From Angelvirus px29 (Duplodnaviria; Heunggongvirae; Uroviricota; Caudoviricetes; Straboviridae), in the IMG/VR virus record IMGVR_UViG_2700988902_000001, positions 11,520 through 75,519 of that record: DNA of 64,000 nt. The stretch is one strand, 5' to 3'. Of the stretch, positions 952 through 44,530 are shown piece after piece. The position numbers and the translations under genes are program-made. Under the pieces are notes generated by a model that was not told where the DNA came from, searched no databases, and saw only the letters and a list, made by a program, of their open reading frames with translations. Position 1 is the first letter of the stretch; every line of letters begins with the position of its first letter.

Positions 952-3714
952 TTACCAATCGCCAAAAAGATCGGTAAGACTTGTTTTCTTCTCTGTATCC
1001 CAGCCAATAGCCTCGCAGATATTTTCCAGTGGTTTCAGAAAATGCTTTCCATACATCCCAGTATAGTCCAGATACTTGTTCAAATCGAGTTCGAATTCAT
1101 CTGGGATCTTCTCACCACTCGGGAACGCCAAGACGGGAGAATGTAACTGGTTCGGTTCTTTCAGCATGATAATCTGAATCTTTTCACCACTTCGAATCAT
1201 ATCAACGCGCTTTTGTTCGGCAAACTTGTTATAAGCCAATGCGCCTTTGATGTGACCCGGACAACCTTTGACAGGAACCCAGTTGTTGTGGTTCTTATCA
1301 ATATTGTTCGCGCTCGATACGGATGCAATCTCTCGATAATCTTTCGTAGGATACGCTGCCTTAACTTCTGCAACGTGCTCCTGTAGAGCAGCTTCACCCT
1401 TAGTCAGGATTAGCTTGATACTCTTCTCAAGCGATTTACCAGCGAATACCGGTGTGCTTGAACGTTGAGTTTCGATACCCATGATCTTGAGCTTGGGAAC
1501 AACTTTACCGTGTTCGTCTAGCTTGCGTTTACCTTCTGAGTCCCACACGTTAGCAGCATAACGCTTTTTACCTGTGATAAAGAAAGTATCAGCGATGATC
1601 TCTCGATCCATGAACAACTGGTGATCATATGCGTTGGTATATTCTGCCAACTCACGATAGCTTTGATCGATATACGGCTCGCATTTCTCTTTAGCGAATT
1701 TCGACAAGAAATCAACCCATCGAATTTTCTCGATGCTATCAACTTCAATACCTTTTCGAGCTGCCATTTGACTTACGAAAGTTTCGAACGTCATATAAAT
1801 GGAGTCAGTATCGCCGTAAACAACATAATCAATCTGATTGGTATTACACACAGCATTCATATATTCGTTCATCTTACGCATAATCCAACGAATAGCGAGT
1901 TGACCGGATACAGTGATTGCCTCAGCGTTTCTTGTGTCAAAGTAACGGAAATGCTGATTACCCAATGCGCCATAAAGTGAGTTGATCAATACCTTACGTG
2001 CTTGTTGGTTTACGTTTTCAAGCTTCTCCATAAAGCGACACCAAGCAACAACTTCGCTAAGTGTGGCACTCGGTAGAGAATGCAGAACAGATTTAAAATC
2101 TTCAAACTCTTGACCTTTCATAGAAAGATTAATCGAATGAATATCAAATCGCTCGGTGCTGAAATTATTTTCGTCCAGCTTACCGTCTTGACGACCGACA
2201 ATAATATCGTATGCGATTGTTGCGATCTTATCCGCTGTGAATTCGGCATTCTTTGCTGCTTTACGCTGCAAGAACACTTTATCGATCTCGGTCGGGATAA
2301 TACCACGTTTAGCGCGAGTATAACGCATCCCATTTGCTGCAAAAGTCATATCGTCTTTCGGGATCTCATATGTCTTTGCAATCATACCGGTGCCAAATAC
2401 ATCTGGTACCATGCGATCTTTCACGAAAGTTCGCGGAACATCAACCTGTCCCATAATCGTCTCTGGACTAATGTTCAGCCATTTGATGATGTGTGGATAC
2501 AGTGATGTCAAGTCGAAACTCATAATCCATTTATAGAAACCGGGGAACGGTTCTTTAACAAATGCACCAGCGAATTTCTCTTTGGTCGAACGCTTGTTTT
2601 CTGGAACAACGATGCCTTGTACGATCAGACTATTGTGAATAATCGCGTCCCAAGTTTTCAGTGGACTAAACACGTTTTGATAGTTGACTTTTGCGTAATA
2701 CGCTACACTGGTAATCAGTGCCATCAACGACAAACGAGCGTCTAGTTTAACCAACAAGTCAACGTCTCGAATCAAATAGTCAATATATCGCTGTGGATTT
2801 TTCTGACTAAATGCGAGGTATGTCTTCTCGGTCATTTCCAACTTTCTCATACCCAGTTCAACTTGACCGATGTAATCCAAACGATATGTTGGACGAGTCT
2901 TGAAAGTGAACTTCTTATAAGCTGCCATGTAATCGATACAAGCAATGCCCATAAGTTCATAGGTGATGATTTCTTCGGCATCTTCGTCATCGTCATTGTG
3001 AGCTATGCGCTCAACAATTTGCTCCCAAGGACTAAGCTTGTTTGCATAGACTTCACCGAGAACCTTGCGATATCGATTTACAATATAGCGCAAGTCGAAC
3101 ATTTCGGAGTTCCACCCGGAGAATACATCTGGTGTATTATCGCGGAAGAATTTCAGATACTTGATTAAAAGCTCTCGCTCAGACGCACAGAACGTATATT
3201 CTACGTGTTCGAGTGTGTCAACGCTCTTACCACTATCGTCTTTATCGAGAATCGATTTGGCGATGTCCCACGGTCTTGTGGTGAACAAAAAGAATTTCTT
3301 GCGCTTGGTACTATAATGACAGATACCATCAATTTCCCAATCGCAAATATGAGGTTCTGGGAAAGGTCCATCAGTCGGGACCTCAATATCGACAAACGCG
3401 ATATCCAGTTGCTCATAGTTGAATGAAATCGGACCGCTATACGTGTGATACAGATATTGAAGAATAAAGTCATCCATACCAAGCGGTTCGCGATTGATAT
3501 CGCGCATTTCTTTCATCCAACGTCTTGCATCGCCAATGCTATCATGTTGAACAGCAACAGCAGCACGACCATAGATATCTTTTAGATCTCCGTTTGCGGA
3601 GTGCTTATACATAATCGGTTTAAACGGGACTTTGCGAGTTCGAGAAAGTCCAGAGTCATCGATAAATCGTTCTAAAACCTGATTGCCTTGAATACAAATA
3701 TTCGTGTAAAACAT
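952..3714 (-). CDS. 43: DNA polymerase, family B (T4 gp43)
   Basis: 920 aa with exonuclease motifs and the polymerase motif YGDTDS. C-terminal LTDLFGDW clamp-binding tail. Synteny with regA/62/44/45. Confidence 0.95.
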   Translation of the reverse strand: MFYTNICIQGNQVLERFIDDSGLSRTRKVPFKPIMYKHSANGDLKDIYGRAAVAVQHDSIGDARRWMKEMRDINREPLGMDDFILQYLYHTYSGPISFNYEQLDIAFVDIEVPTDGPFPEPHICDWEIDGICHYSTKRKKFFLFTTRPWDIAKSILDKDDSGKSVDTLEHVEYTFCASERELLIKYLKFFRDNTPDVFSGWNSEMFDLRYIVNRYRKVLGEVYANKLSPWEQIVERIAHNDDDEDAEEIITYELMGIACIDYMAAYKKFTFKTRPTYRLDYIGQVELGMRKLEMTEKTYLAFSQKNPQRYIDYLIRDVDLLVKLDARLSLMALITSVAYYAKVNYQNVFSPLKTWDAIIHNSLIVQGIVVPENKRSTKEKFAGAFVKEPFPGFYKWIMSFDLTSLYPHIIKWLNISPETIMGQVDVPRTFVKDRMVPDVFGTGMIAKTYEIPKDDMTFAANGMRYTRAKRGIIPTEIDKVFLQRKAAKNAEFTADKIATIAYDIIVGRQDGKLDENNFSTERFDIHSINLSMKGQEFEDFKSVLHSLPSATLSEVVAWCRFMEKLENVNQQARKVLINSLYGALGNQHFRYFDTRNAEAITVSGQLAIRWIMRKMNEYMNAVCNTNQIDYVVYGDTDSIYMTFETFVSQMAARKGIEVDSIEKIRWVDFLSKFAKEKCEPYIDQSYRELAEYTNAYDHQLFMDREIIADTFFITGKKRYAANVWDSEGKRKLDEHGKVVPKLKIMGIETQRSSTPVFAGKSLEKSIKLILTKGEAALQEHVAEVKAAYPTKDYREIASVSSANNIDKNHNNWVPVKGCPGHIKGALAYNKFAEQKRVDMIRSGEKIQIIMLKEPNQLHSPVLAFPSGEKIPDEFELDLNKYLDYTGMYGKHFLKPLENICEAIGWDTEKKTSLTDLFGDW

Positions 3715-4220: not shown

Positions 4221-4799
4221 TTACCAAGAACGGATAGCGCGTTGAATTTTATCACGTTCGGTTTTAGTTGGGATCATTGCCAAGCACGGTGCGTTGACAT
4301 CATTTACCATCGGAGAAAACATTTTTCTCAGCTTGGCTTTTTGTTCATCAGAGAAGCGATTGATATATTCTCTGGCTCGTTGTGTCGAGACTTCGTAAAA
4401 GTCAGAAACTAGGTATTCGAACACTCGTTCTTCCCAGTCGTCAGTGAGTTTAGCAAACTTGACTTTAGGCAGACTACACTGACGAATGGTAAAATACATG
4501 TAATCATAATGCATTTGATCAGAAATGTGACCTTCCATCGTGTTGAGTTCGAAAGCATAACCTCTCATTTCAACATGCTGGGACAAAGCATTATTCAACA
4601 TATGTTGGTCATAATCGGCAAATCGCGCAACAGACCCATGACCTAGTTTCTTGGTAACGTTGTCCAGTACCACAAACAGACTTTGTTCAGCTGGAACTTT
4701 GAACTGTTTAGCCAGTTCTTTTACAGCGTCCCAATCTCTGGAACGCCATGCAACTTCGTGCTCGTTTAAGCTTTCTTCACCAAGAAAATCTAGAGACAT
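4221..4799 (-). CDS. 62: Clamp loader small subunit (gp62)
   Basis: 192 aa (T4 gp62 is 187 aa). Position between gp44 and regA, translationally coupled to gp44. Confidence 0.8.
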   Translation of the reverse strand: MSLDFLGEESLNEHEVAWRSRDWDAVKELAKQFKVPAEQSLFVVLDNVTKKLGHGSVARFADYDQHMLNNALSQHVEMRGYAFELNTMEGHISDQMHYDYMYFTIRQCSLPKVKFAKLTDDWEERVFEYLVSDFYEVSTQRAREYINRFSDEQKAKLRKMFSPMVNDVNAPCLAMIPTKTERDKIQRAIRSW

Positions 4800-4802
4800 A
4801 AT

Positions 4803-5774
4803 TTATTTCCATGTGGTTTCGAGTTCAAACGCGAGATCTGCCAGCAGATCAAACAGGTGAATCTCCATGTTCGGAATGTCGTTTGCGTACTTCTGGTTTT
4901 CCGCAATCAGCTTGATCATAACACGCAATCCAGCCGGTTTGATTTCAGTAAACAAACGCTCATAAAGCTTGGTAACGAAGTTATCATAATCGACAGTAAA
5001 CTTCGGAATCATAGCACGAATCGCGCCGAGTTTCTTAGTTCGAAGCATTTCGATTACTTCGTTCATATCCTCAGTTGCCTGAGTCGCTTTGGTCAAAACA
5101 CCTTCATCGATCTTGCCAGACTTGGCATAGCTATCGAGAGTTGTAATGGTACCGCGCAGATCTGGGAAATTCATCTTAACCAGTGCAGCGATAGCCTTAC
5201 GAGATTCTACTACAACACCTTCGATTTCGCAAATCTTTTCGCACCGAAGAATCATTTCTTTCATCATTCGGATCTTGTCTGCATCAGTCGGATTACCAAA
5301 TTCGATCTGACGGAAACGAGACTTGAGCGGCGCCGGGATTGCTTCGACATGATTACAAGTCATGATCACAGAACAGTTGAAACTGTATGCTTCCATCCAA
5401 GAACGAAGTTCTTCGTGAACTGCTTTCATACCCTTGTTATCACCTTCATCGATGATGATAACTTTGCCACCGGGCTTTTGTGTAGTAGTACACGCAAATG
5501 CGGTCAAGCTATTACGCAAGTCATCGATACGCAGTTTACCACCAGAGATAAACATCACTTCGGCGTCAATCTCGTTACACAGAACGCGAGCCATTGTGGT
5601 CTTACCAGTGCCGGGGCTCTTAGAGTAAAGCAGAATGTGTGGAATTCGACCAGAAGCAACAATACCTTTAAAACGCTCGATATCAGATTCAGGAAGAACA
5701 CACTCAGAAATCAGATTTGGTCGGAACTTTTGTTCCCACATAAACTCATTTGGATCAGTAACAGTCACAGTCAT
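4803..5774 (-). CDS. 44: Clamp loader large subunit, AAA+ ATPase (gp44)
   Basis: 323 aa. Walker A SPGTGKTT, Walker B IIIDEGD, RFC-like sensor motifs. Synteny. Confidence 0.9.
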   Translation of the reverse strand: MTVTVTDPNEFMWEQKFRPNLISECVLPESDIERFKGIVASGRIPHILLYSKSPGTGKTTMARVLCNEIDAEVMFISGGKLRIDDLRNSLTAFACTTTQKPGGKVIIIDEGDNKGMKAVHEELRSWMEAYSFNCSVIMTCNHVEAIPAPLKSRFRQIEFGNPTDADKIRMMKEMILRCEKICEIEGVVVESRKAIAALVKMNFPDLRGTITTLDSYAKSGKIDEGVLTKATQATEDMNEVIEMLRTKKLGAIRAMIPKFTVDYDNFVTKLYERLFTEIKPAGLRVMIKLIAENQKYANDIPNMEIHLFDLLADLAFELETTWK

Positions 5775-5864: not shown

Positions 5865-6542
5865 TTAAGCGGTATATTTGGACTTGGCATCCAGCGAGAT
5901 AATGTAACTTGCGTTAGCACCTTCAAAGCAGATTGCACCTTCTTTAGCAATCATTACTTTGTATTTCGCATCGGTCATTTTCATGTTACCAAGTGCAACG
6001 ATGAAATCAAAGTTAGCGTCGTTACCTTCGTAATCGTCAGCAACCGGAATTTCAAAGGTATTGCTGTTAGCGTCGCCGCCAGTCAGTCGAGCCAGAATCT
6101 TGCGACCATCATTTACAAAGTGCAGATCAACCAGTGACATGGTAGAAGCAGATTTCATGATCTGTTTCAGTTGTTCTTCGGTCAGCTCAAACACAACGGA
6201 CGCGGTTGGGATGCTGATAGCTTTCTTCGGATGAATGATGGTACCAGCTTCTGCCATCTTGATCTTAGCCATAGACTTGCCACCGGCTGCATTCTTGATA
6301 GTGATGTATTCACCATCCTCAGTCACTTGAGCAGGCAGACCAATCATGTTGGCTACACCAATCAATTCACCAAGACTGTAGATTCGCAGTTCGCTATCAA
6401 TTTGATCTTTGATAGTAGCGGATGCATACAGAACGTTGTTGACGCTCTTGGTGTTGATAAAAGTACCCGGTTTCAGCACCACAGACGGATTGATTTTGGC
6501 GAAGTTAGACAGGATTTCTACAGTTTCTTTGCTCAGTTGCAT
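5865..6542 (-). CDS. 45: Sliding clamp (gp45)
   Basis: 225 aa, N-terminus MQLSKETVEILSNFAKINPSVVLKPG aligns with T4 gp45 MKLSKDTTALLKNFATINSGIMLKSG. The ..GNMKM.. block is also conserved. Confidence 0.9.
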   Translation of the reverse strand: MQLSKETVEILSNFAKINPSVVLKPGTFINTKSVNNVLYASATIKDQIDSELRIYSLGELIGVANMIGLPAQVTEDGEYITIKNAAGGKSMAKIKMAEAGTIIHPKKAISIPTASVVFELTEEQLKQIMKSASTMSLVDLHFVNDGRKILARLTGGDANSNTFEIPVADDYEGNDANFDFIVALGNMKMTDAKYKVMIAKEGAICFEGANASYIISLDAKSKYTA

Positions 6543-11214: not shown

Positions 11215-11459
11215 TTAAACTTGTAGTGTGATTCTTCGGTATCGAGCGAAATGATTTCGCCAATTAGTTTACCATGCTTGACGCTTATGACGTTAGAACG
11301 AATTGAAAGAGGATCAATAATCACCGGGATTCCAGATTCGAGTAATTTTATTTTGAGCATATAGGGGACTAATTCGGGTTCATCATTGCACTCATGATAA
11401 TTTTCCCAGAGTGGAATAGTTACTTCAATATTATTCGTCGGCATCATCGTCATCCTCAA
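11202..11459 (-). CDS. Hypothetical protein
   Basis: 85 aa, overlaps its neighbours by a few codons. Confidence 0.45.
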   Translation of the reverse strand: MRMTMMPTNNIEVTIPLWENYHECNDEPELVPYMLKIKLLESGIPVIIDPLSIRSNVISVKHGKLIGEIISLDTEESHYKFKWEM

Positions 11460-11955
11460 GGAATGACAATCCGCCTAGTTGCTTTGGCTTTTTAGCTTTC
11501 TGATTTTTCATTGTAGCTTCAAAGTCGTTTGCTTTGGTCATCATGTCATTATAGAAAGATAGGTCAACTAATTTTGCCATATCTTCATCTTCGGCATCAT
11601 GGACGTGTTCCAAAAAATACTTATACTTTGCAGCTTCTTCTTTCTTGGAATGTCTAATTCGAGCAATGAACGAGCGAGCACATATCATGGTAATATATGC
11701 GTGTGGATTCGTATATCGTTCGGTGTCAAAGTTCTTGCAGTATTTCAAGCAAGTTTCAACAGCATCACCAACCATCAGCTCTTTCCAAGTGTCGGTATAA
11801 CGACTAAATCGCCAATAATTCGTGAACCCATAAGCGATCTTCATGATTGAAGAACCAATGAACTCGGGCATTCGCTCACTGGGGTTTTCTTTCAACTTCT
11901 CTTTCCAAGCGACAAATGCTTGATAAAGTTCCTCGTTGTTAACGTAATCTGCCAT
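11431..11955 (-). CDS. 55: Late-transcription sigma factor (gp55)
   Basis: MADYVNNEELYQAF...KNFDTERYTNPHAYITMICARSF aligns with T4 gp55 (..YVNNKELLQAI...[23 protein letters not shown]). Acidic C-terminus with an LSFL clamp-binding-like motif. The track start at 12009 is probably an over-extension; the true ATG is ~11955. Confidence 0.85.
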   Translation of the reverse strand: MADYVNNEELYQAFVAWKEKLKENPSERMPEFIGSSIMKIAYGFTNYWRFSRYTDTWKELMVGDAVETCLKYCKNFDTERYTNPHAYITMICARSFIARIRHSKKEEAAKYKYFLEHVHDAEDEDMAKLVDLSFYNDMMTKANDFEATMKNQKAKKPKQLGGLSFLEDDDDADE

Positions 11956-17933: not shown

Positions 17934-18330
17934 TCAACCGAACAAAGAAAGTAGCTCGGTGTCTTCTTTTTTCAGATTGGCAACGATGTTAGCCAGCGCA
18001 GCATAGCGGATAGAACAACGACCTTTATTTACATCGATACCAGCTTCTTTCAGCGCAGACAACGGAATCGGACGAACGTTATCAAAAAAGATATCGTTGG
18101 TATTCAGTTCTTTGTCAGTCCAAGTGCCGGTGTAAACCTCGGTGATATCAGCGAAATAAGCTTTGTTCCCTTTGTCAACGATTGCGATGTGTTTTACCTT
18201 GTTGATGCGTTCGGCAGCACCGATAAAACCTTCGGCTTTCTTCTCTTTCAGCATACGCTCAAAGCTCAGACAGCCAGCAGTACCATCCATTTCGCGACTC
18301 GGGATTACAACGATAGTATCTTGTTTCATG
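17934..18330 (-). CDS. Hypothetical protein
   Basis: Probable true start MKQDTIVV (132 aa) with SD GAGGAAC. The track ORF is over-extended through the upstream promoter. Confidence 0.5.
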
Positions 18331-18355
18331 ATTTGTTCCTCAGCTTTGTTTCGAT

Positions 18356-18389
18356 AGAGCCATCTTATCATGATGGCTCTTTGTGTCAA
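18356..18389 (-). promoter_or_regulatory. Sigma70-like early promoter with the -10 region inside an inverted repeat
   Basis: Minus strand TTGACA-N16-TAAGAT. IR AGAGCCAT(c ttatcatg)ATGGCTCT brackets the -10. Confidence 0.55.
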
Positions 18390-24024: not shown

Positions 24025-24510
24025 TCAATTATGAAGTTTTTTCATCTTTTTTGGCATTTCTTTGTTGAACACTTTGCAGAGTTCAGCCTTGGTCATGCCG
24101 TCGTTGTACGCGAAACCGTTTGCTTGTAACTCGGCAATCATTGTCGGTTTGTCTTGACGAGCGAAACGCTTTTTCAAATCTGGCAACAGTTTCGGGTGAA
24201 TGTCATTTTCTTTGGTATCTTGTTCGAGATACGATATCAAGGTTTTTAGTTGTGTGATGTAATCGACATTTCTAGACGCCAGACCAGATCGCATAAACTC
24301 ATGTCTAACCATACCTTCAAACTTGTTACAAAAGCAACACAGCAAACCGCGCACACGTCCAGCTTGCGGCCCATCTAATTCGTGATCATGATCAAGATGA
24401 TTTTTGTTAATCTCTTTATCAAGCTCACGCTTACAGAGAGGGCAAATGCCGTTTTGTGCATGGTACAGTTTTTCTTTAGCGGCATCATAGGTTTTCGGTG
24501 TCAACAGCAT
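24025..24510 (-). CDS. 49: Endonuclease VII, Holliday junction resolvase (gp49)
   Basis: 161 aa. CPLCKREL..NHLDHDHELDGPQAGRVRGLLCCFCN matches T4 endo VII CLICQREL..NHLDHDHELNGPKAGKVRGLLCNLCN (zinc site + H-N-H). Confidence 0.9.
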   Translation of the reverse strand: MLLTPKTYDAAKEKLYHAQNGICPLCKRELDKEINKNHLDHDHELDGPQAGRVRGLLCCFCNKFEGMVRHEFMRSGLASRNVDYITQLKTLISYLEQDTKENDIHPKLLPDLKKRFARQDKPTMIAELQANGFAYNDGMTKAELCKVFNKEMPKKMKKLHN

Positions 24511-24546
24511 AGAGTCATTTCCATTAGTGAATATGACTCTATTTAG

Positions 24547-25452
24547 TTAGAAGTCACCGAACAGATCGGTCAACCCTTTATCTCGATTGAATTCGTCAAG
24601 AGTTTTTAGCCATTTCATCGTCTCGTTTTCTTCGAGATCTTTTATCTCGGCGTCGAAGTCAAGAGATTTTGATTTAGCTTTCGCTAGATTAGCATAGTTA
24701 TCTTCGCCTCTCCACTTGAACATCAGATAAGCTCTCGCGTACATTCTCGGCGGATAAGTGAATTCTCGATAGTCTATGCCTTTGCTATACTCGGGATAAG
24801 GCAATTTTTCTTTCTTGCACTTTACCTTTCTGTCTAGCCAATAAATGTAGCGATAAGTTTTGACATCAAACCACTTGCATTTATCATCGAGAAGCATTCT
24901 CCAACGTTCGAGCATAGAACCCGGTCGTTTTGTGTTCTCGAACGGAACATGATGAAACACTTCTCCGGTTTCGGTGTTCTCGGCAAATAGAGTTTGATCG
25001 AAACCGTAGTAATCGAAATTCGATGCTTTGTAGATTGTACCACAACCAAGTCTACCATCAGCAAAGCTTTGAATTGCTTTGATATGAGGATAACACTTGC
25101 GAATGATTTTAAATGACGCACCGAGCATAGTGGTTTCGCCATTATGCCCGATACTATCATCAATCCACAATCGATTCAACTCGATTATGTTATTTGATTC
25201 AAGTTCATCTGAAATTGATTTGTAAGAACCCGGGTTCATCAGATTCCCAAACACAGCAACCCCAAGAAGAACATCATCACGAAACACGCCAATGTTCACT
25301 ATTCCAAACGAGGTATTCCACTTTTTCGAGTAATGATTTTTCTCAATCATTTCTCTTGCAACGTCTCGGTCTACTTCCATGAATGTCAACAGACCGTTAT
25401 TTTTTGTTTGTTTGTGTATAACGTATTTCATTACTCTCCTTATGCTTCCCAC
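24547..25452 (-). CDS. Hypothetical protein with sliding-clamp-binding C-terminal tail; possible acyltransferase-like (Mom/GNAT-like) fold
   Basis: 301 aa. The C-terminal nonapeptide GLTDLFGDF is almost identical to the gp43 C-terminus SLTDLFGDW. N-terminal ..EKNHYSKKW..GV..VFGN.. and ..SFADGRLGCGTIYKASNFDYYG.. are reminiscent of acyltransferase-fold families. The fold assignment is tentative. Confidence 0.55.
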   Translation of the reverse strand: MGSIRRVMKYVIHKQTKNNGLLTFMEVDRDVAREMIEKNHYSKKWNTSFGIVNIGVFRDDVLLGVAVFGNLMNPGSYKSISDELESNNIIELNRLWIDDSIGHNGETTMLGASFKIIRKCYPHIKAIQSFADGRLGCGTIYKASNFDYYGFDQTLFAENTETGEVFHHVPFENTKRPGSMLERWRMLLDDKCKWFDVKTYRYIYWLDRKVKCKKEKLPYPEYSKGIDYREFTYPPRMYARAYLMFKWRGEDNYANLAKAKSKSLDFDAEIKDLEENETMKWLKTLDEFNRDKGLTDLFGDF

Positions 25453-30152: not shown

Positions 30153-31070
30153 TCACTTTTTACCAACAAACCAAGCAACTACCAGAGAGAAAGTGCGATC
30201 AGCGTTTTTGCAACCGGCAGCTTCATAAGCAGCGATGAATTCCGCTTTGGTCTTGATCCCGTTTTCCCAGATTTGAACAGCGGTCTTGGACGGTTTGTGA
30301 GCAACCAACAGACCACTCGGAGCCATGTGACGCTTCGGGGTAGCGACTGCGGTATTAGCAGCAACTGGCAGAGCTTTAGGAGCTACTACAGCAACAGGAG
30401 TAACAACCTTGGCTTTAGCAATAGCAACTTTCTTCTGAGTGTCAACCACGTTAGTTTTAACAGTGTAAGGAGCGACTTCGTTATCACGGGTCGGAACAAC
30501 ATTCATTGCAGTTTTCTGAACTTCGCCAACAAAGTGAGATTTGTCCAGACGACGGGAAACGCCGTTAACAGTGGTCAAGTAGTAATGACCTGCCATCACT
30601 TTGTTATGACGAACTTGACCGAGTTTAATAGATTTACCGTGAACATTGTATTCATATTCAGCGGTGGCCAGTTCCAGTTGGTGATAAGTGTGAGCTTGAC
30701 CACCCAGCATTTCATGCAGGAACTTCCAACGAGAGTCATGACCGCTTTTTTGACGCTGAACATAATCAACAACGTGAGCGATTTCATGGCTAACTGTTTC
30801 GTCCAGCATATGCCACCAAGCTTTTTCGTTCATGATCATCATGTTGACGTTGAAACGAATGGCATACTTGCGAGAGTCAAAACCACCAGCTTTGCGACCA
30901 GTCATAACAGCTTGACCAGCGGCACGACCTTTCAGATTGAATTCAACTTTCAGATTCTTACCGATTACCAGATTCGCGTCGAAGTGTTCGTTTGCCATTT
31001 TCAGATCGTGATTGATGCGAGCGGTCAGAGCAGCGATGGCGTTTTGTTTCATTTCGATTGTAGTCAGCAT
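30153..31070 (-). CDS. SprT-like zinc metalloprotease domain protein
   Basis: 305 aa with HEIAHVVDY (HExxH) in an SprT-like context (..WWHMLDETVSHEIAH..). The C-terminal half is basic and Ala/Val-rich. Confidence 0.65.
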   Translation of the reverse strand: MLTTIEMKQNAIAALTARINHDLKMANEHFDANLVIGKNLKVEFNLKGRAAGQAVMTGRKAGGFDSRKYAIRFNVNMMIMNEKAWWHMLDETVSHEIAHVVDYVQRQKSGHDSRWKFLHEMLGGQAHTYHQLELATAEYEYNVHGKSIKLGQVRHNKVMAGHYYLTTVNGVSRRLDKSHFVGEVQKTAMNVVPTRDNEVAPYTVKTNVVDTQKKVAIAKAKVVTPVAVVAPKALPVAANTAVATPKRHMAPSGLLVAHKPSKTAVQIWENGIKTKAEFIAAYEAAGCKNADRTFSLVVAWFVGKK

Positions 31071-39197: not shown

Positions 39198-39652
39198 TGC
39201 GTAGTCCTATAACCATCAAATACACTTCTGGCACGATAATAGTCCTTGACTGTAAAGCCATTAGCACTATCAACGTGAATGAAATTTTCTTTTTGTGATT
39301 CCAACATATCGTCATCATCGTCAATGATAACATACTTTTTACAATCGAGGTGTTTGTCTAACCATTCTTTGATTAGCTCTCCGCGATGTTCACCAACGAG
39401 ATCCCGAGTCTTGAAATCTTCATGCAGACATCCGGGAGGAAATCCAGCTAGTGCTAGATGATCTCTCACCATCTGAACATCACAGCCAAGTCTCCAAGTG
39501 CTACTGTATACCACTTTCAAATTGTAGTCAACGATAAGTTTTGATAGGAGCTTTACAGCCCCTATATCTACCATTTGTCCATATTTCAGATAGCTAGAAT
39601 CAGAATGATAAACGCCATCAACATCGAGAAACAATACTCTCAGTTCTTTCAT
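39164..39652 (-). CDS. HAD-superfamily phosphatase (nucleotidase/polynucleotide phosphatase-like)
   Basis: 162 aa. Motif I FLDVDGV and motif IV VIIDDDDD. Confidence 0.7.
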   Translation of the reverse strand: MKELRVLFLDVDGVYHSDSSYLKYGQMVDIGAVKLLSKLIVDYNLKVVYSSTWRLGCDVQMVRDHLALAGFPPGCLHEDFKTRDLVGEHRGELIKEWLDKHLDCKKYVIIDDDDDMLESQKENFIHVDSANGFTVKDYYRARSVFDGYRTTQCQEHKNMGRI

Positions 39653-40896
39653 ATGTCAAGCGTCCACATTGTATCTTTCAGCCAAGACGGATATTCTCTA
39701 CCTTCGCTGGTATCAGTTTCGTCTAGTGTGTTGCAATAAGCAATACAAAATTCTAACTGCGAACGTTGTTCTTCGCCGAGTAACGCAACCAAACGCTCTA
39801 TGGCAGCGTTTCTATTGTCCAGCATATACTCGCAAGCGTAGATACGAGAAACGATTCTGGTAGCACCCTGACCAGCGTTGAGCATACGCTTTACAATACC
39901 TTCGAGTATGTTACCGTCACCGCACGATGGCTCAAAGAAAGTCGAACCTGAATTCAGATCATCGATGTCCGTATAATCTAACATCTGATTAACGATTTCA
40001 ATCGGAGTAAAGAATTCTGCCGTTTTCTTTTGACGTTCTCGCTCGATTGTGCTAGTGAAGTTTCTGGTTTCATCAACAACTTTCGTTTTGTGTCTGATAC
40101 CAGAATAGTAATCTTCGATTACTTCCGGCACTTTATGTCTGATATGAGTTAATTCAAATTTCTCAAATAGTTCATCATCAGTCCAGCGTCTGGTCATATC
40201 TAACCATGGTATCGCATTCAGTTCTCCGCTGTCAAGATGAATGTTCATCTTATACAAAGAAAGCATGAATCTAGCGAAATCTGTTTTCAGATAAGCAACA
40301 AAGTTCTCTGCCTCTTCTAACGTTTTGAATGCAAAGTTTTGACCACGCTTAGGCATTTCAGTTGTCGGAACGTAGTCGGTCGGAAACATGGTAAAGAAAT
40401 CAGAATTAAAGCGTTTGCCAGCTTCTGGTGGGTGTCCTCTAACACTCGCTATAGTGACGTAATGACTTGCGCCAATAACCTCACCGGAGCATTCCATATG
40501 CGCTACGCTAGGATATTTCATCTTGTCATAGACATCAGAACACCAATCGCCAAGCATATTGATTTTGTCTAAAGGCAATTTAGCAGTGTAATATCCAGAG
40601 ACATCGATTAGATCTGATTTCTTTGTGGTATCAATAACAGTTATACTAAGCGGAGTCAGAAACCCAGCTTTGAAAACGGCGTTACCGTCGAACAAATGAA
40701 TACTCGTTTTGTGCGCTTTCATGTTGCCAAGAAGTTCAGCAACGCGCTTTGTTTGTCGGGTCGGCTTTCTGTTTACAAAGGGGCCAGACGGATGCACAGC
40801 GATTGTGACATCACATTTCTTTACCCCTAAGTTAACAAAGTCAACGTGCAAACCCGCACTATATGGCGGGTTTGCGATCATATAATCAAAGCGCAT
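39649..40896 (-). CDS. DNA N6-adenine methyltransferase, beta-class
   Basis: 415 aa. Motif IV NPPY at residues 9-12, motif I EPSCGDGNIL ~300 aa downstream. Confidence 0.8.
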   Translation of the reverse strand: MRFDYMIANPPYSAGLHVDFVNLGVKKCDVTIAVHPSGPFVNRKPTRQTKRVAELLGNMKAHKTSIHLFDGNAVFKAGFLTPLSITVIDTTKKSDLIDVSGYYTAKLPLDKINMLGDWCSDVYDKMKYPSVAHMECSGEVIGASHYVTIASVRGHPPEAGKRFNSDFFTMFPTDYVPTTEMPKRGQNFAFKTLEEAENFVAYLKTDFARFMLSLYKMNIHLDSGELNAIPWLDMTRRWTDDELFEKFELTHIRHKVPEVIEDYYSGIRHKTKVVDETRNFTSTIERERQKKTAEFFTPIEIVNQMLDYTDIDDLNSGSTFFEPSCGDGNILEGIVKRMLNAGQGATRIVSRIYACEYMLDNRNAAIERLVALLGEEQRSQLEFCIAYCNTLDETDTSEGREYPSWLKDTMWTLDI

Positions 40897-41581
40897 GAGT
40901 GCTCAATCGCTCGCTGTATTCGCGCTCCATGCCGAACTCTTTCGCAATCTTCATAATAGCGATGTTCATTTTTACCAGCTTATCACGTTCGACGATATAA
41001 TCATTCATCATTACATCGAGTTCGAGTGCATGACGTCGCTTGATTTCAGCTTCAATTTGTTTGATTTGAAGTTTCAAAATGTCGGTAGAAACTTCTTTGA
41101 TGTCCTTTTCCACTTTAGCGATGATCTCCGGTTTCGGTTGCTTAGGAGCTTTTTGTAGCAAATCGATTTTGCGTTCGGGTATACGAACGTTCATTTTGAA
41201 TCCATAATCGGTGCGCTTTGCCGCGAAAGGAGAAAATGCTTTCATTCGAATGAAAATCTCGTCAATGATAGACTGACTACCACGACTGAATTCAAACTCA
41301 ACGATGTTAACAATTATGCCTTCGCCGAGTTTCGTTACATTAACACCCATCAACTCCGGGAACTGACCGTCTTCAATATACGCGCCAAACAGTTCGCTTA
41401 GATGCGCTTTGTTGAACGGACGACTACCAATCATCGATTCTGTATAGCGTCTGATGTTTTTGCGGAACTTCGCTGGGTCGATATCGACTTTAGTTCCAGC
41501 TGGCTTGGTATGAGTTTCACACGCAATATTCAGGAATTTGTACCACTGATTACGCGCAACCAACTTTCGTTTTTCGTTCAT
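40886..41581 (-). CDS. Hypothetical protein
   Basis: 231 aa, coiled-coil C-terminus. Confidence 0.5.
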   Translation of the reverse strand: MNEKRKLVARNQWYKFLNIACETHTKPAGTKVDIDPAKFRKNIRRYTESMIGSRPFNKAHLSELFGAYIEDGQFPELMGVNVTKLGEGIIVNIVEFEFSRGSQSIIDEIFIRMKAFSPFAAKRTDYGFKMNVRIPERKIDLLQKAPKQPKPEIIAKVEKDIKEVSTDILKLQIKQIEAEIKRRHALELDVMMNDYIVERDKLVKMNIAIMKIAKEFGMEREYSERLSTHAL

Positions 41582-41620
41582 AATTTCTCCAATGAGAGGG
41601 CTTTTAACCCTCTCACTATA

Positions 41621-42799
41621 TTAGATACCAAACATAAAATCAAGCCCAGATTTAGCATTTTCTTTATCGTGTGCTTCGATTGCTTTCTTATACGCTTCGA
41701 GTTCAGACGGAACACCAATAAACTCATGAGAATAGCTAACGCGATCTTTCACAAACTTGGGATCGACCGAGTGTTTCATCATTTTGTTTGGTGTAACTGG
41801 TGTTCTATTGCTGGACGTCGCTTTCCACTTGATAGAACGTTCGTGGTACTCTCCGAGCTTAGGGTTAGTGGTACGAGTATAGAATCTCTTACCTCTCGCC
41901 AGAAGCTGGTAGGCGACGGCCTCGGTCATCTTCGGACCAATCCCCATTCCCTGAAAGTCTGGAAGCACAACAAGACGATGTGCAATCCACGCATCTTTGA
42001 CTGTGCCAGATGGCAACGGGAGAATACTAACGAATCCAACCGGTACATCACCCCATTTCATCAAGTAACAATGGCTTGCCACGTTGATTTCGCGAGAGAG
42101 GTAGTGATGGTCGGCAAACCCAAGATCTGAGTAGGCTTTTGCTGATACAGGTGTGATGTCGAGCGCAATCGCTGGAAACCGCCTTTCTGACCCCCGAATA
42201 ATTAGTTGCTCATTCGATACGTCAAACACCCAATCCGGTTGCAGCCACTCGATGATATCATAGTGACAAGACGCAAACACAAGACCTTTGATGCCAGTAC
42301 GATCAACGTATTTTCTAATACTCTTTGAGCAAGAAATAGCAACGTTACGGTCAACAACCGATGTAAACTCGTCAATAACGGTATTATCAACCAGACTACG
42401 GGCCAAGTTAGCGCGGAACTGTTGACCATTAGAAAGAGAATGAAACGGTTTTGCCCAGTGTGGGACAGAGTTGAAACCAACGGCACCAAGTCGTTCTTGC
42501 GCATCTTCAACACTATCAAAGTGTGAAGCAATCGCTTTGTTGTGTTCCCACTTTACTTCTTTTTCGATACCGAAATTACGAAGAATGGTTGACTTACCAC
42601 TACCACTTGGACCAACAATCAAACCAATGCCGTATTCTTTCGGTACTTCATGTGGCATCAGATTCTTGATCTTGGTAGTGGTAGTTCCATCAAACTCAAA
42701 ATCCATTTGCTTGGTTACTTCAACGACAATAGCGTCGAGTTCAACTTTGGTTTCGCGAGTGATATATCCACTTTCGTCGGTAAATTGTTCGAGACTCAT
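41621..42799 (-). CDS. ABC-type ATPase fused to a GNAT N-acyltransferase domain; clamp-binding-like C-terminal tail
   Basis: 392 aa. Walker A GPSGSGKST, ABC signature LSNGQQ, Walker B VIDEFTSVVD, H-loop CH. C-terminal GNAT motif A ..LPDFQGMGIGPKM... Extreme C-terminus SGLDFMFGI resembles the T4 gp45-binding motif (LDFLF/Y). Confidence 0.75.
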   Translation of the reverse strand: MSLEQFTDESGYITRETKVELDAIVVEVTKQMDFEFDGTTTTKIKNLMPHEVPKEYGIGLIVGPSGSGKSTILRNFGIEKEVKWEHNKAIASHFDSVEDAQERLGAVGFNSVPHWAKPFHSLSNGQQFRANLARSLVDNTVIDEFTSVVDRNVAISCSKSIRKYVDRTGIKGLVFASCHYDIIEWLQPDWVFDVSNEQLIIRGSERRFPAIALDITPVSAKAYSDLGFADHHYLSREINVASHCYLMKWGDVPVGFVSILPLPSGTVKDAWIAHRLVVLPDFQGMGIGPKMTEAVAYQLLARGKRFYTRTTNPKLGEYHERSIKWKATSSNRTPVTPNKMMKHSVDPKFVKDRVSYSHEFIGVPSELEAYKKAIEAHDKENAKSGLDFMFGI

Positions 42800-42860
42800 T
42801 AAATTCCTCCAATAAAAAGCGCGTGACTGTAATTTACCACAATGTCACGCGCTTGTAAAC

Positions 42861-43652
42861 TTAGAATGTCAGAAGATTTGAACGAGCTTTGTTGATTTCT
42901 TCGATGATTGCTTGTTCTTCTTTTGCCATTTCGACTCGCTCTTTACGAAGACGCTCAATTTCAGCGTCGTGCAGTCGCATCTTCTCATTCAGCAAACGAA
43001 TACGGTCAAACTTCTCACCGTGATTCAGTTCGATGAAACGATTCACGCTTACCAGATACTGACGCTTGATTTCATTCTCACTGACCGGCGGCAGAGAAGA
43101 AGTGATGGTCGGTTCATCCAGTTGTACTACTTCCACAGTTTCTTCCTTTTTGTATGGTTTCACCAGATCGGCAGCAACCAATTCTTTGTTTTCTTGTTTA
43201 AGATACGGCATCATTTTCAGCGGTTTCAGTGTTTTCAGATCCGGAGACATAAAGATGTGAGCATCCAGTTGAATAACACCGTTCACAATCTTGGCATACC
43301 CCAACTTAACCATGTTGGAGTTTTCCATATGATTCACGTATTTGGAACGAATGACCATACGAATACAGTGAAACGATGCAAACTGATTGATAGCGCGAAC
43401 AACAGACGCAGTATCCCACACCACAGCTTCATCACCAAATGCACGATAGAACTTACGTTTCATGTTGAGATTGGTTTCAAGACGATCAGCTTTCTTTACG
43501 TGTTCGGCGGTATAATCGTTATACACGCGAATGGTTTGACCTTTTACGGTAACATTCTTGAAAAAGATGTGATTCAGAATCGCACGACAAGCGTTATGAT
43601 TCTTGATTGATTCTTTCATCTTATTCCGATTTGATTTTACTTGACTGCTCAT
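42861..43652 (-). CDS. Hypothetical protein
   Basis: 263 aa, C-terminal coiled coil. Confidence 0.5.
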   Translation of the reverse strand: MSSQVKSNRNKMKESIKNHNACRAILNHIFFKNVTVKGQTIRVYNDYTAEHVKKADRLETNLNMKRKFYRAFGDEAVVWDTASVVRAINQFASFHCIRMVIRSKYVNHMENSNMVKLGYAKIVNGVIQLDAHIFMSPDLKTLKPLKMMPYLKQENKELVAADLVKPYKKEETVEVVQLDEPTITSSLPPVSENEIKRQYLVSVNRFIELNHGEKFDRIRLLNEKMRLHDAEIERLRKERVEMAKEEQAIIEEINKARSNLLTF

Positions 43653-44530
43653 TACGCTTCCTTAAAGCTGTATTTGTCGAGAATTTGAGTCATGATAGTG
43701 ATTTTCGGTTGCAAAGTCAACATCACCTCATGATATTCTGCATATGCTTGTTGTTGTTCTGCAACAGCCTGATCAAGCTGTGCTTGTGCTTGTGCCAACA
43801 GTTGCTTGAACTGTTTCACATTGACACTCTTAGATTCAACAACGCGCTCCAGTTCTTGAAGTTGAGCGAAACCAGGCAGAACTTTTTCGAAATCGATATT
43901 AAAAACATCTTGACTTTGAACTTCTTTCTTGCTCATTTCTTCCAGAGTTCGGACGTTCTCGGTTCTGGTGTTTTTATAGCAGATATCAAAGCCTATTGAA
44001 TTTTTATCCGTGCGAACATCAAACAGTTTGTTTTCACCAAACACAGGAACAGTGATAACAACACGACTCTTATATTGTGTTGGGTCACAGTGCCAGACAC
44101 GCATACCGGTTTCGCCGTCTTTGAATCCCCAGTTCTCCATAGAGAAGTGTTTGCCGAGATTTGAATTAAGCAGCTTCTCAGGAACTTGTGATTTGAAATA
44201 CAATGCGATTTGCGTAGGAGAAATCACACGATATTGCCAAATGCTCGTTTGAAGACTAGGCCAAATCGGGCGCAATTTTTCGTATTGGTCATATTCCGCA
44301 TTGACGTTGTTATACAACGATTTGCTAAAGAAACTATCGGTACCAAACATTGCCACGAATGCGGATGCAATGCGAACCAGATTGGTACTGGAAAACATAT
44401 TACCGTCAAACGCACGGGTCTGAGTCTTACCGTCGATAGTCACGTTTTCACAGAACAGGATCTGATTCATACGAACAACGAAGTTTTTGAATTTCTTGTC
44501 CTTGAATACCTGCTTACGTTCTTTTTTCAT
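43652..44530 (-). CDS. Hypothetical protein
   Basis: 292 aa. Confidence 0.5.
   Translation of the reverse strand: MKKERKQVFKDKKFKNFVVRMNQILFCENVTIDGKTQTRAFDGNMFSSTNLVRIASAFVAMFGTDSFFSKSLYNNVNAEYDQYEKLRPIWPSLQTSIWQYRVISPTQIALYFKSQVPEKLLNSNLGKHFSMENWGFKDGETGMRVWHCDPTQYKSRVVITVPVFGENKLFDVRTDKNSIGFDICYKNTRTENVRTLEEMSKKEVQSQDVFNIDFEKVLPGFAQLQELERVVESKSVNVKQFKQLLAQAQAQLDQAVAEQQQAYAEYHEVMLTLQPKITIMTQILDKYSFKEA

What the first reader, a model, noticed from the sequence alone, without database searches (positions are those of the whole stretch)
24547..25452. DNA-polymerase-type sliding-clamp-binding tail on a non-replicative (putative acyltransferase-fold) protein
The 301-aa protein ends in ...GLTDLFGDF. 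The gp43 DNA polymerase in the same window ends in ...SLTDLFGDW. This is the position where T4/RB69 gp43, gp55 and gp33 carry their gp45-clamp-binding peptide. A near-identical C-terminal nonapeptide on an unrelated protein strongly suggests it is recruited to the gp45 clamp, i.e. it acts on DNA at replication forks or clamp-marked late-transcription sites. Its N-terminal motifs (..NHYSKKW.., ..SFADGRLGCGTIYKASNFDYYG..) loosely resemble acyltransferase-fold DNA-modification enzymes (Mom-like); that fold call is tentative. It sits directly beside endonuclease VII.
Basis: partly seen in the sequence, partly recalled or inferred. Interest (0 to 1): 0.75.

Follow-up and report, generated by a model that had tools for sequence, protein, structure and literature searches.

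The report
Clamp-docking tail on phage Mom enzyme
A T4-like Aeromonas phage encodes a Mom-type DNA-modifying enzyme whose last nine residues copy the tail that the phage's own DNA polymerase uses to hold the sliding clamp. This suggests that protective DNA modification is physically coupled to replication.

Summary
The window is Aeromonas phage PX29 (Straboviridae). The minus-strand gene 24547-25431 (294 aa from the real ATG, not 301) ends in GLTDLFGDF. The gp43 polymerase gene (952-3714) ends in SLTDLFGDW. Among 718 PX29 ORFs this tail is the only one resembling gp43's (score 38, next best 17). Five of the seven identical residues use different codons, so it is not a recent DNA copy.

The protein is a clear Mom-family GNAT: Pfam E 5e-57, best fold match Mu Mom 8BV8, catalytic Arg kept and Ser replaced by Thr. 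It is already annotated "Mom-like". The model shows a Mom core, a four-helix extension and a disordered tip that carries the motif.

The new evidence is comparative. Homologues in three other T4-like contexts end in gp43-type tails (DLSSLFGD, MSLDELFA, TISLDEFI). Homologues in phages that appear to use the host replisome end in beta-clamp or PIP-type tails (QLSLF, QTSIFDFL); 20 of 120 do, against 0.1-0.2 expected. In one unrelated contig, Mom and a DNA methyltransferase share the tail YDIFDFM.

The best reading is a gp45-tethered adenine hypermodification enzyme. Binding and DNA chemistry are untested. I found no paper linking Mom to clamps. I class it as a new variant of known kinds.

The parts
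24547..25431 (-). Mom-like DNA modification gene (PX29p046 / CL89_gp046, YP_009011475.1), 294 aa plus stop
   Evidence: ORF and translation. RefSeq and GenBank annotation. Shine-Dalgarno AAGGAG before the ATG at 25431. Pfam Mom E 4.9e-57.
24772..25431 (-). Mom/GNAT catalytic core (residues 1-220). It includes R87 (25171-25173, equivalent to Mu R111) and T100 (25132-25134, equivalent to Mu S124).
   Evidence: Pfam match to residues 22-220. Alignment to PDB 8BV8 and to Mu Mom. ELNR is invariant across 70 homologues. Foldseek top hit 8bv8, E 2e-17.
24580..24750 (-). C-terminal four-helix extension (residues 228-284). It is absent from Mu Mom and typical of the roughly 300-aa Mom subfamily.
   Evidence: AF2 model with helices 228-240, 244-254, 259-267 and 270-284, all at high pLDDT. 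Mu Mom ends right after the PYPK motif.
24550..24576 (-). Predicted gp45 clamp-binding tail GLTDLFGDF (residues 286-294), on a disordered tip
   Evidence: pLDDT falls to 58 and then 44 over the last 14 residues. Seven of nine residues are identical to the gp43 tail. Proteome-wide outlier, z = 7.1. Fits the gp43 tail consensus.
952..3714 (-). Gene 43 DNA polymerase. Its tail SLTDLFGDW is encoded at 955-981.
   Evidence: Tails of relatives: Aeh1 and Ah1 SLSDLFGDM, phiAS5 SLMDLFDF. Consensus from 120 gp43 C-termini.
5865..6542 (-). Gene 45 sliding clamp, the proposed docking partner
   Evidence: Pfam gp45-slide_C E 1.5e-15. Full-length match to T4 gp45 (1CZD) and RB69 gp45 (1B77/1B8H), E about 1e-32.
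4221..5774 (-). Genes 62 and 44, the clamp loader that puts gp45 on DNA
   Evidence: RefSeq annotation.
11431..11955 (-). Gene 55 late sigma factor. It has a hydrophobic and acidic C-terminus (...GGLSFLEDDDDADE) and is a known class of gp45 client that would compete for the same clamp.
   Evidence: Review PMC2988020.
24511..24546 (-). Intergenic hairpin between the Mom stop codon and the gene 49 AUG. It shows the two genes are co-transcribed. It is not part of the protein mechanism.
   Evidence: RNA fold of 24495-24560 gives -25.2 kcal/mol, z = -6.4. The 3' arm reaches the AUG of gene 49 and no T-run follows.

Best explanation
The gene encodes an active Mom-family GNAT enzyme. By homology with phage Mu Mom, it would transfer glycine from Gly-tRNA(Gly) to N6 of adenine in double-stranded DNA, giving N6-carbamoylmethyl-adenine.

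A folded helical extension and a short disordered linker carry a C-terminal linear motif (L-T-D-L-F-G-D-F). This motif mimics the clamp-binding tail of the phage's own DNA polymerase.

Through this tail the enzyme would dock into the hydrophobic pocket of the gp45 trimer that gp44/62 loads at forks and nicks. It would then ride on freshly replicated phage DNA. That would couple anti-restriction hypermodification to replication, raise its processivity, and direct it to clamp-marked phage DNA.

Shown here: Mom family membership and fold, the position and near-identity of the tail, its disorder, its selective conservation, and the cognate clamp in the genome.

Inferred: binding to gp45, the chemistry, and the biological pay-off.
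For: Family and fold:
- Pfam Mom E 4.9e-57 and PHROG Mom-like.
- phmmer to 8BV8 E 3e-27, with ELNR aligned and N-x-E-S in Mu matching N-G-E-T here.
- AF2 mean pLDDT 93.9. Foldseek top hit 8bv8, then other GNATs.

The tail in PX29:
- GLTDLFGDF versus SLTDLFGDW in gp43. It is the only such tail among 718 ORFs.
- Five of seven identical residues differ by synonymous codons.
- It matches its own gp43 at the position that varies among relatives (T in PX29, S in Aeh1 and Ah1, M in phiAS5).
- Of 120 gp43 tails, 108 carry [LIM]xx[LIMF]F in the last 12 residues. Anchored on the final F, the commonest residues are A-[TS]-L-[EA]-[DS]-[LF]-F-[DGS], and the Mom tail fits this.
- The tip is disordered.

Conservation in orthologues:
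- Against P0002, identity by region is core 73%, linker 18%, tail 63%. Against P0024 the L..LF core is retained after an unrelated linker.

Tail type follows clamp type:
- Mom homologues in T4-like contexts carry gp43-type tails. These are L011 beside endonuclease VII and nrdD, and L019 with gp59 and gp32.
- Homologues in contigs with DnaB or replication-organiser genes and no clamp in the sequenced stretch carry Q-type tails.
- None of the 120 gp43 tails is Q-type.
- 20 of 120 homologues have Qx[STDNE][LIM]F in the last 16 residues, against 0.1-0.2 expected.

Independent replicate:
- In contig L023 a DNA N6/N4 methyltransferase and the Mom homologue share the tail YDIFDFM.

Partner and literature:
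- gp45 is present and homologous over its full length to RB69 gp45, which was crystallised with the polymerase tail.
- gp43, gp33 and gp55 tails are interchangeable gp45-binding modules (PMC2988020).
- Mom chemistry is described in PMC13219725.
Against: - No binding test was possible.
- The Mu catalytic Ser124 is Thr here, as in most of this subfamily. Activity of the Thr form is untested.
- No data exist on modified bases in PX29 DNA.
- About 78% of the nearest homologues have no recognisable clamp motif, among them the isolate phages vB_EfaS_159 and Lactococcus PMBT69, so the tail is not required for Mom function.
- For the metagenomic T4-like homologues I could not recover the gp43 of the same phage. 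Strict within-genome co-variation therefore rests on PX29 alone.
- The regular expressions used for the enrichment test were written after seeing the tails.
Confidence: 0.65

Rival explanations
1. The tail is a functional docking motif but its partner is not gp45. Candidates are the host beta clamp (DnaN), or another replisome protein that also recognises the gp43 C-terminus.
For: LTDLF resembles the beta-clamp pentapeptide QL[SD]LF without the Q. Non-T4 homologues carry true Q-type motifs. In T4, the gp43 tail has more than one reported binding site on gp45 (PMC2988020).
Against: The tail matches the phage's own gp43 rather than the Q-type motif. None of 120 gp43 tails is Q-type. All four Mom homologues in T4-like contexts lack the Q. 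PX29 encodes its own clamp and clamp loader.
Confidence: 0.1
2. The similarity is a non-functional relic or a coincidence. [quoted passage not shown]
For: The motif is only nine residues long. The gene is an insertion relative to Aeh1. T4-like genomes recombine often.
Against: Five of seven identical codons differ synonymously and there is no flanking DNA similarity. GC content equals that of the neighbours. The motif core is kept in orthologues that are 52-63% identical while the linker is scrambled. The tail is a proteome-wide outlier at z = 7.1. The same tail-sharing is seen independently in contig L023.
Confidence: 0.07
3. The protein mainly acts as a regulator that occupies gp45 sites, for example to tune the switch between replication and gp33/gp55-dependent late transcription. 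DNA modification would be secondary or lost.
For: It would compete with gp43, gp33 and gp55 for the three sites of one clamp (PMC2988020). Mu S124 is replaced by Thr.
Against: The whole Mom core is under strong conservation, with 35 invariant positions in 70 homologues, including ELNR and the SFADGRLG-x-GTIYKA block. The model is a complete GNAT with the Mom-specific insertion. Thr is the family consensus at that site.
Confidence: 0.05

Closest known systems
Phage Mu Mom (PDB 8BV8): a Gly-tRNA(Gly)-dependent adenine N6 hypermodification enzyme of the GNAT superfamily
   Same: Same Pfam family, at 34.5% identity over the core. Same fold with the Mom-specific helical insertion. The catalytic Arg is conserved and the Ser position holds a hydroxyl residue. 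It is a phage anti-restriction accessory gene.
   Different: Mu Mom ends right after the PYPK motif and has no C-terminal helical extension and no clamp motif. In Mu the link to replication is indirect: the mom activator MuC binds the beta clamp (PMC12867686). The PX29 gene is in an early or middle-type leftward gene cluster with no late promoter consensus upstream. I saw no com-like gene beside it.
T4/RB69 gp43, gp33 and gp55 C-terminal sliding-clamp-binding epitopes
   Same: The motif is at the extreme C-terminus. It is hydrophobic and acidic with an L-x-D-L-F core, sits on a flexible linker, and the cognate gp45 is in the same genome. Such tails are interchangeable between proteins (PMC2988020).
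   Different: The carrier is a DNA base-modifying enzyme, not a polymerase or a transcription factor. In the literature I could search, no DNA-modifying enzyme is listed among gp45 clients.
Eukaryotic DNMT1-PCNA (a PIP-box-tethered maintenance DNA methyltransferase)
   Same: The logic is the same. A post-replicative DNA-modifying enzyme is recruited by a short clamp-binding motif to newly replicated DNA (PMC9690074).
   Different: The enzyme fold, chemistry, clamp and lineage are all unrelated. The resemblance is by analogy only.
Bacterial beta-clamp clients with the QL[SD]LF motif, and PCNA PIP-box clients (Qxx[IL]xxFF)
   Same: Many Mom homologues end in exactly such motifs, for example EQLSLF, QISLF and QTSIFDFL.
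   Different: The PX29 protein itself lacks the Q and follows the T4-type consensus instead.

Membership tests
Mom protein family (Pfam PF25680) | Profile HMM match above the curated threshold | tested here: met
   193.3 bits against a cut-off of 27.1, E 4.9e-57, residues 22-220 covering 2-201 of 202 profile positions. PHROG 1384 E 1.6e-56.
Mom protein family (Pfam PF25680) | GNAT fold with the Mom-specific helical (HTH-like) insertion | tested here: met
   AF2 model at pLDDT 93.9 with helix 170-181 in the insertion region. Foldseek best hit 8bv8 (E 2e-17, target TM 0.74-0.79), then generic GNATs.
Mom protein family (Pfam PF25680) | Residues essential for catalysis in Mu Mom (R111, S124; PMC13219725) | tested here: inconclusive
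   R111 corresponds to R87 in the invariant ELNR motif. S124 corresponds to T100, where Thr is the subfamily consensus. A hydroxyl group is retained, but activity of the Thr form has not been shown.
Mom protein family (Pfam PF25680) | Gly-tRNA(Gly)-dependent N6-adenine modification of dsDNA | not testable with these tools
   Needs LC-MS/MS of PX29 DNA or an in vitro assay.
T4-type gp45 clamp clients (C-terminal clamp-binding epitope) | Motif at the extreme C-terminus that matches the gp43-type consensus | tested here: met
   GLTDLFGDF fits A-[TS]-L-[EA]-[DS]-[LF]-F-[DGS], the commonest residues at each position in 120 gp43 tails. Seven of nine residues are identical to the phage's own gp43.
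T4-type gp45 clamp clients (C-terminal clamp-binding epitope) | Motif carried on a flexible, poorly conserved linker | tested here: met
   pLDDT of 58 and then 44 for the last two ten-residue blocks. Linker identity to orthologues is 18-22%, against 43-63% in the tail.
T4-type gp45 clamp clients (C-terminal clamp-binding epitope) | Cognate gp45 clamp and gp44/62 loader encoded by the same genome | tested here: met
   Window 5865-6542 (gp45) and 4221-5774 (gp62 and gp44).
T4-type gp45 clamp clients (C-terminal clamp-binding epitope) | Physical binding to gp45 | not testable with these tools
Bacterial beta-clamp clients (QL[SD]LF) | Q at position -4 from the F of the pentapeptide | tested here: not met
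   PX29 has L-T-D-L-F. Only non-T4 homologues carry the Q. The PX29 protein is therefore not filed here.

The most novel reading that the evidence does not exclude
Clamp docking may be a general, modular strategy of phage post-replicative DNA-modifying enzymes, with the tail retuned to whichever clamp replicates the phage. Mom enzymes carry gp43-type tails in T4-like phages. They carry beta-clamp or PIP-type tails in phages that appear to use the host replisome. A large N6/N4 DNA methyltransferase family ends almost universally in (Q/M)YDIFDF(L/M), occasionally replaced by QLSLF. A TET-associated glycosyltransferase in a marine T4-like contig ends in a tail like that of its neighbouring gp43B. 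If this holds, epigenetic self-marking of phage DNA is widely coupled to the replication fork, as DNMT1-PCNA is in eukaryotes.
Probability: 0.45. Interest if true: 0.8.

Novelty: new variant of a known kind. Interest (0 to 1): 0.68.

Why it matters
Mom chemistry was solved only recently (PMC13219725). How the enzyme covers a replicating genome quickly enough, and how it is kept on phage DNA, was not addressed there.

A clamp-tethered Mom would add a DNA base-modifying enzyme to the short list of gp45 clients, which so far holds polymerase, clamp loader, gp33, gp55, RNase H and ligase. It would give a bacterial-virus counterpart to DNMT1-PCNA. It would also explain how a 222-kb phage could modify its DNA co-replicatively.

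The idea is directly testable with peptides and tail mutants. The comparative pattern suggests a simple sequence rule for predicting which clamp a phage modification enzyme uses. That rule would help in annotating modification genes, in choosing enzymes for in vitro DNA labelling, and in understanding escape from restriction.

Tried and rejected
- A scan of IMG/VR for DNA encoding LTDLFGD[FW]-stop gave one hit that lay in no ORF of at least 80 aa, so I treated it as chance.
- The search for related loci with the single protein gave two distant loci. With the alignment it gave 80 loci, mostly of about 242 aa and most ending in a tail like ...IKxNIIxLLDK[IV]AA. None of the few I compared was T4-like. 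IMG/VR therefore added no replicate.
- I tried to recover the gp43 of the metagenomic T4-like phages that carry Mom. Megablast of L011 and L019 against GenBank phages found nothing. Contigs of gp43B proteins with matching tails came from other samples. Within-genome co-variation therefore rests on PX29, plus the L023 methyltransferase-Mom pair.
- I considered that the tail is a recent copy of the 3' end of gene 43. I rejected this on codon usage.
- I considered a late-promoter link. There is no TATAAATA upstream of the gene, and the sigma-70-like sites found are no more numerous than in shuffled sequence.
- I checked whether the predicted DNA glucosyltransferase of Aeh1 has a gp43-like tail. 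It does not.
- I checked whether "PX29p085", named in PMC8056088 as a GNAT DNA modifier, is this gene. It is a different gene.
- Wider Mom-family representatives clustered at 50% identity rarely have clamp-like tails (3 of 115). The trait is therefore confined to the long subfamily.

Full report
**Identity of the window and check of the observation**

The window is Aeromonas phage PX29 (Straboviridae, Angelvirus; NC_023688.1 / GU396103.1), record positions 11520-75519 in the same orientation.

The flagged ORF lies on the minus strand at 24547-25452 and ends ...NRDKGLTDLFGDF. The true start is the ATG at 25431. It is preceded by AAGGAG, and the GTG falls inside the upstream gene. This gives 294 aa, as annotated.

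Gene 43 (952-3714, minus strand) ends ...EKKTSLTDLFGDW. The two tails share LTDLFGD followed by an aromatic last residue.

I reassembled the whole 222-kb genome. I then scored the C-terminus of every ORF of at least 50 aa against the gp43 tail. The Mom-like protein scores 38, the next ORF scores 17, and z is 7.1 over 718 ORFs.

Five of the seven identical residues use different synonymous codons, and there is no DNA similarity around them. The GC content of the gene equals that of its neighbours. The identity is therefore maintained at the protein level and is not a recent copy.

**What the protein is**

- It is an unambiguous Mom-family member: Pfam PF25680 E 4.9e-57 over residues 22-220 and PHROG 1384 "Mom-like DNA modification protein".
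- phmmer finds the Mu Mom crystal structure 8BV8 at E 3e-27.
- An AlphaFold2 model built on 70 homologues has mean pLDDT 93.9. Its best structural match is 8BV8 (E 2e-17), followed by ordinary GNAT acetyltransferases.
- Mu Mom transfers glycine from Gly-tRNA(Gly) to N6 of adenine in dsDNA, and R111 and S124 are essential (PMC13219725). R111 aligns with R87 in an ELNR motif that is invariant in 70 homologues. S124 aligns with T100, and Thr is the subfamily consensus.
- The record has carried a "similar to protein mom" note since deposit. RefSeq names the product Mom-like. The enzyme family is therefore not new.
- The model has three parts: the Mom core (to about residue 220), a four-helix extension (228-284) that Mu Mom lacks, and a final stretch of about 10-14 residues whose pLDDT falls to 58 and then 44. 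The motif sits on that disordered tip.

**Is the tail a clamp-binding motif?**

[quoted passage not shown] They can be swapped freely between proteins. The RB69 clamp was crystallised with the 11 C-terminal residues of its polymerase (PMC2988020).

PX29 encodes gp45 (5865-6542; Pfam gp45-slide_C, and a full-length match to T4 1CZD and RB69 1B77/1B8H). It also encodes the gp44/62 loader.

I collected 120 C-termini of gp43 (mostly split gp43B) proteins from T4-like phages. Of these, 108 carry [LIM]xx[LIMF]F in the last 12 residues. Anchored on the final F, the commonest residues at each position are A-[TS]-L-[EA]-[DS]-[LF]-F-[DGS]. None has a Q-type motif. The PX29 Mom tail fits this consensus.

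Among close relatives that lack the mom gene, gp43 ends SLSDLFGDM (Aeh1, Ah1) or SLMDLFDF (phiAS5). The PX29 Mom tail carries T at the variable position, like PX29's own polymerase.

In Aeh1, gene 49 is followed directly by the orthologue of PX29 gp047. The mom gene is therefore an insertion in the PX29/AsFcp lineage. Its tail matches the clamp system already resident in the phage.

**Orthologues and the wider family**

In GenBank phages, only PX29 and AsFcp_1, _2 and _4 among T4-like phages carry the gene, and their proteins are identical. The nearest cores are in Enterococcus and Lactococcus phages (58% identity). Mu Mom is 34.5% identical.

A search of 5.8 billion proteins returned 944 relatives, and I read the 120 best. 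In a neighbour-joining tree of the core, PX29, P0002 (63% identical in the multiple alignment) and P0024 (about 50%) form one clade. Their tails are GLTDLFGDF, DLSSLFGD and MSLDELFA.

Identity by region shows an island of conservation at the very end:

| Comparison | Core | Linker | Tail |
|---|---|---|---|
| PX29 vs P0002 | 73% | 18% | 63% |
| PX29 vs P0024 | 57% | 22% | L..LF kept |

This pattern is typical of a short linear motif.

- P0024 lies in a T4-like contig next to endonuclease VII and NrdD, the same neighbourhood as in PX29.
- P0116 branches elsewhere in the tree. It lies in a T4-like contig with gp59, gp32 and a DNA ligase. It ends TISLDEFI, which resembles the ...SLDEFM tails of a group of marine gp43B proteins.

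Many other homologues instead end in beta-clamp or PIP-type motifs: EQLSLF, QISLF, QMSLF, QVSLFDL, QTSIFDFL, QISIFDLM, QYDIFDFMG and others. Twenty of 120 have Qx[STDNE][LIM]F starting in the last 16 residues. The expectation is 0.11 from internal positions and 0.17 from shuffled tails. With a broader definition the count is 26 of 120 against about 1. These expressions follow the published QL[SD]LF and Qxx[IL]xxFF consensus (PMC9690074), but I wrote them after seeing the data.

The three Q-type contexts I examined have no T4-like genes. Two carry replication genes of the kind found in phages that use the host replisome, a replication-organiser protein in one and a DnaB helicase in the other. 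Tail class therefore follows clamp class: four of four T4-like cases are L-type and three of three non-T4 cases are Q-type.

The Q-type tails are scattered among tail-less relatives in the tree. This implies repeated gain or loss.

The trait is confined to the long subfamily of about 300 aa. Among representatives of the wider family clustered at 50% identity, only 3 of 115 show such a tail. The IMG/VR relatives are mostly about 242 aa with a different ending.

**An independent replicate of tail sharing**

In the unrelated contig L023, a 582-aa N6/N4 DNA methyltransferase (Pfam E 2e-38) ends ...VVMYDIFDFMD. The Mom homologue 8 kb away ends ...KQYDIFDFMGDGESSGK. The tail score is 39 against 19 for the next of 40 ORFs.

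Of the 120 nearest relatives of that methyltransferase, about 110 end in (Q/M/V/A)(Y/F)(D/N)IFD(F/I/V/L)(L/M/G). Thirty-six of the 120 match the strict Q-type expression, against 0.04 expected. A few carry QLSLF or QYSLF at the same place.

In a marine T4-like contig, a TET-associated glycosyltransferase ends ...DDNFCIDDFN next to a gp43B ending ...QDNFDLDEFM. This is a weaker match, 23 against 13.

Two or three different classes of DNA-modifying enzyme thus carry the local clamp-type tail. This is hard to explain unless the tail is a docking signal.

**Mechanism proposed**

Gp44/62 loads gp45 at primer ends and nicks. Clamps left behind the fork mark new phage DNA. Mom would dock through its polymerase-like tail and track on duplex DNA. 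The GNAT core, and perhaps the helical extension, would engage DNA and Gly-tRNA(Gly). Adenines would then be hypermodified co-replicatively. Mom would share the three clamp sites with gp43, gp33 and gp55.

The gene sits in a long leftward cluster of early-type genes. It is separated from its upstream neighbour by only a few bases, and no TATAAATA lies upstream. This is compatible with expression during replication.

Only the sequence and structural features are shown. Binding, chemistry and benefit are inferred.

**Rivals**

- A different partner, such as the host beta clamp. This is disfavoured by the absence of the Q and by identity to the phage's own gp43.
- A relic or coincidence. This is disfavoured by the codon data, the orthologue conservation, the proteome-wide scan and the L023 replicate.
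- A non-enzymatic clamp regulator. This is disfavoured by the intact, strongly conserved catalytic core.

**Comparison with what is known, and novelty**

The enzyme family (Mom) and the motif class (T4-type clamp tail) are both known. Their combination is not described in the papers I could search:
- The 2026 Mom mechanism paper does not mention clamps or the C-terminus.
- The jumbo-phage survey notes Mom genes in T4-like jumbo phages but says nothing about clamps.
- Searches combining Mom or methyltransferase with clamp-binding motif returned only MuC.
- In Mu, the mom activator MuC binds the beta clamp (PMC12867686). The link to replication there is transcriptional.
- The closest functional analogy is DNMT1-PCNA.

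I rate this a new variant of known kinds, of moderately high interest. It is testable with simple biochemistry, and it may be one instance of a broader rule.

Noticed in passing
L023 170-1918 and proteins P0388-P0507: A large family of N6/N4 DNA methyltransferases from metagenomes, some labelled archaeal or Bacilli MAGs, ends almost universally in ...ARIKAEVV(Q/M)YDIFDF(L/M)(E/D). This reads as a PIP-box or beta-clamp-like motif. A few members carry QLSLF or QYSLF at the same place. I found no paper describing it.
   Followed up: partly
L030 9175-10422 versus L030 4051-5136: In a marine (TARA) T4-like contig, a TET-associated glycosyltransferase (Pfam TAGT, E 3.5e-45) ends ...DDNFCIDDFN. This resembles the neighbouring gp43B tail ...QDNFDLDEFM. 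It may be another clamp-tethered DNA modifier.
   Followed up: partly
window 17934-18371 (-): The hypothetical protein CL89_gp036 (145 aa, no Pfam hit), between nrdD and nrdB, ends ...KKEDTELLSLFG. This is another clamp-like C-terminal motif and a possible further gp45 client.
   Followed up: partly
window 24511-24546 (-), folded as 24495-24560: A strong RNA hairpin (-25.2 kcal/mol, z = -6.4) fills the spacer between the Mom stop codon and gene 49. Its 3' arm reaches the gene 49 AUG and no T-run follows. From my recollection, T4 gene 49 has a comparable hairpin that masks its start on long transcripts; I did not check this here.
   Followed up: partly
window 39649-44530 (-), especially 41621-42799: A second candidate DNA-modification module. 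PX29p085 is a P-loop ATPase fused to a GNAT domain (Pfam Acetyltransf_1, E 1.3e-8), listed in PMC8056088 as a presumed DNA modifier. The 415-aa gene two positions upstream of it (39649-40896) has a weak N6_Mtase hit. In Aeh1 the equivalent position holds a glucosyltransferase (Aeh1p093) instead.
   Followed up: partly
L019 15424-15648: A 74-aa protein with no Pfam hit in the T4-like contig that carries P0116 ends ...GVRDIFGF, which resembles gp43 tails such as LEDIFGF.
   Followed up: no
L019 11830-12339; window 30153-31070 (-): A SprT-like metalloprotease gene lies about 0.9 kb downstream of the Mom homologue in L019. PX29 has one about 5 kb from its Mom gene. The recurrence may be coincidental.
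   Followed up: no
proteins P0121-P0240; PX29 record 163133-164620: Most of the nearest gp43 C-terminal homologues are proteins of about 390 aa, consistent with a split gp43A/gp43B polymerase as annotated in Aeromonas phage 65. PX29 gp43 is a single 920-aa chain. Separately, PX29 DNA ligase gp30 (outside the window) ends ...KTIKKFFG.
   Followed up: no
window 952-900 (-), just downstream of gene 43: A perfect 9-bp inverted repeat (TAGGGCTAT...ATAGCCCTA) lies immediately after the gp43 stop codon and is followed directly by ATGTTGATG. The arrangement of a hairpin followed by an ATG is the same as after the Mom gene.
   Followed up: no
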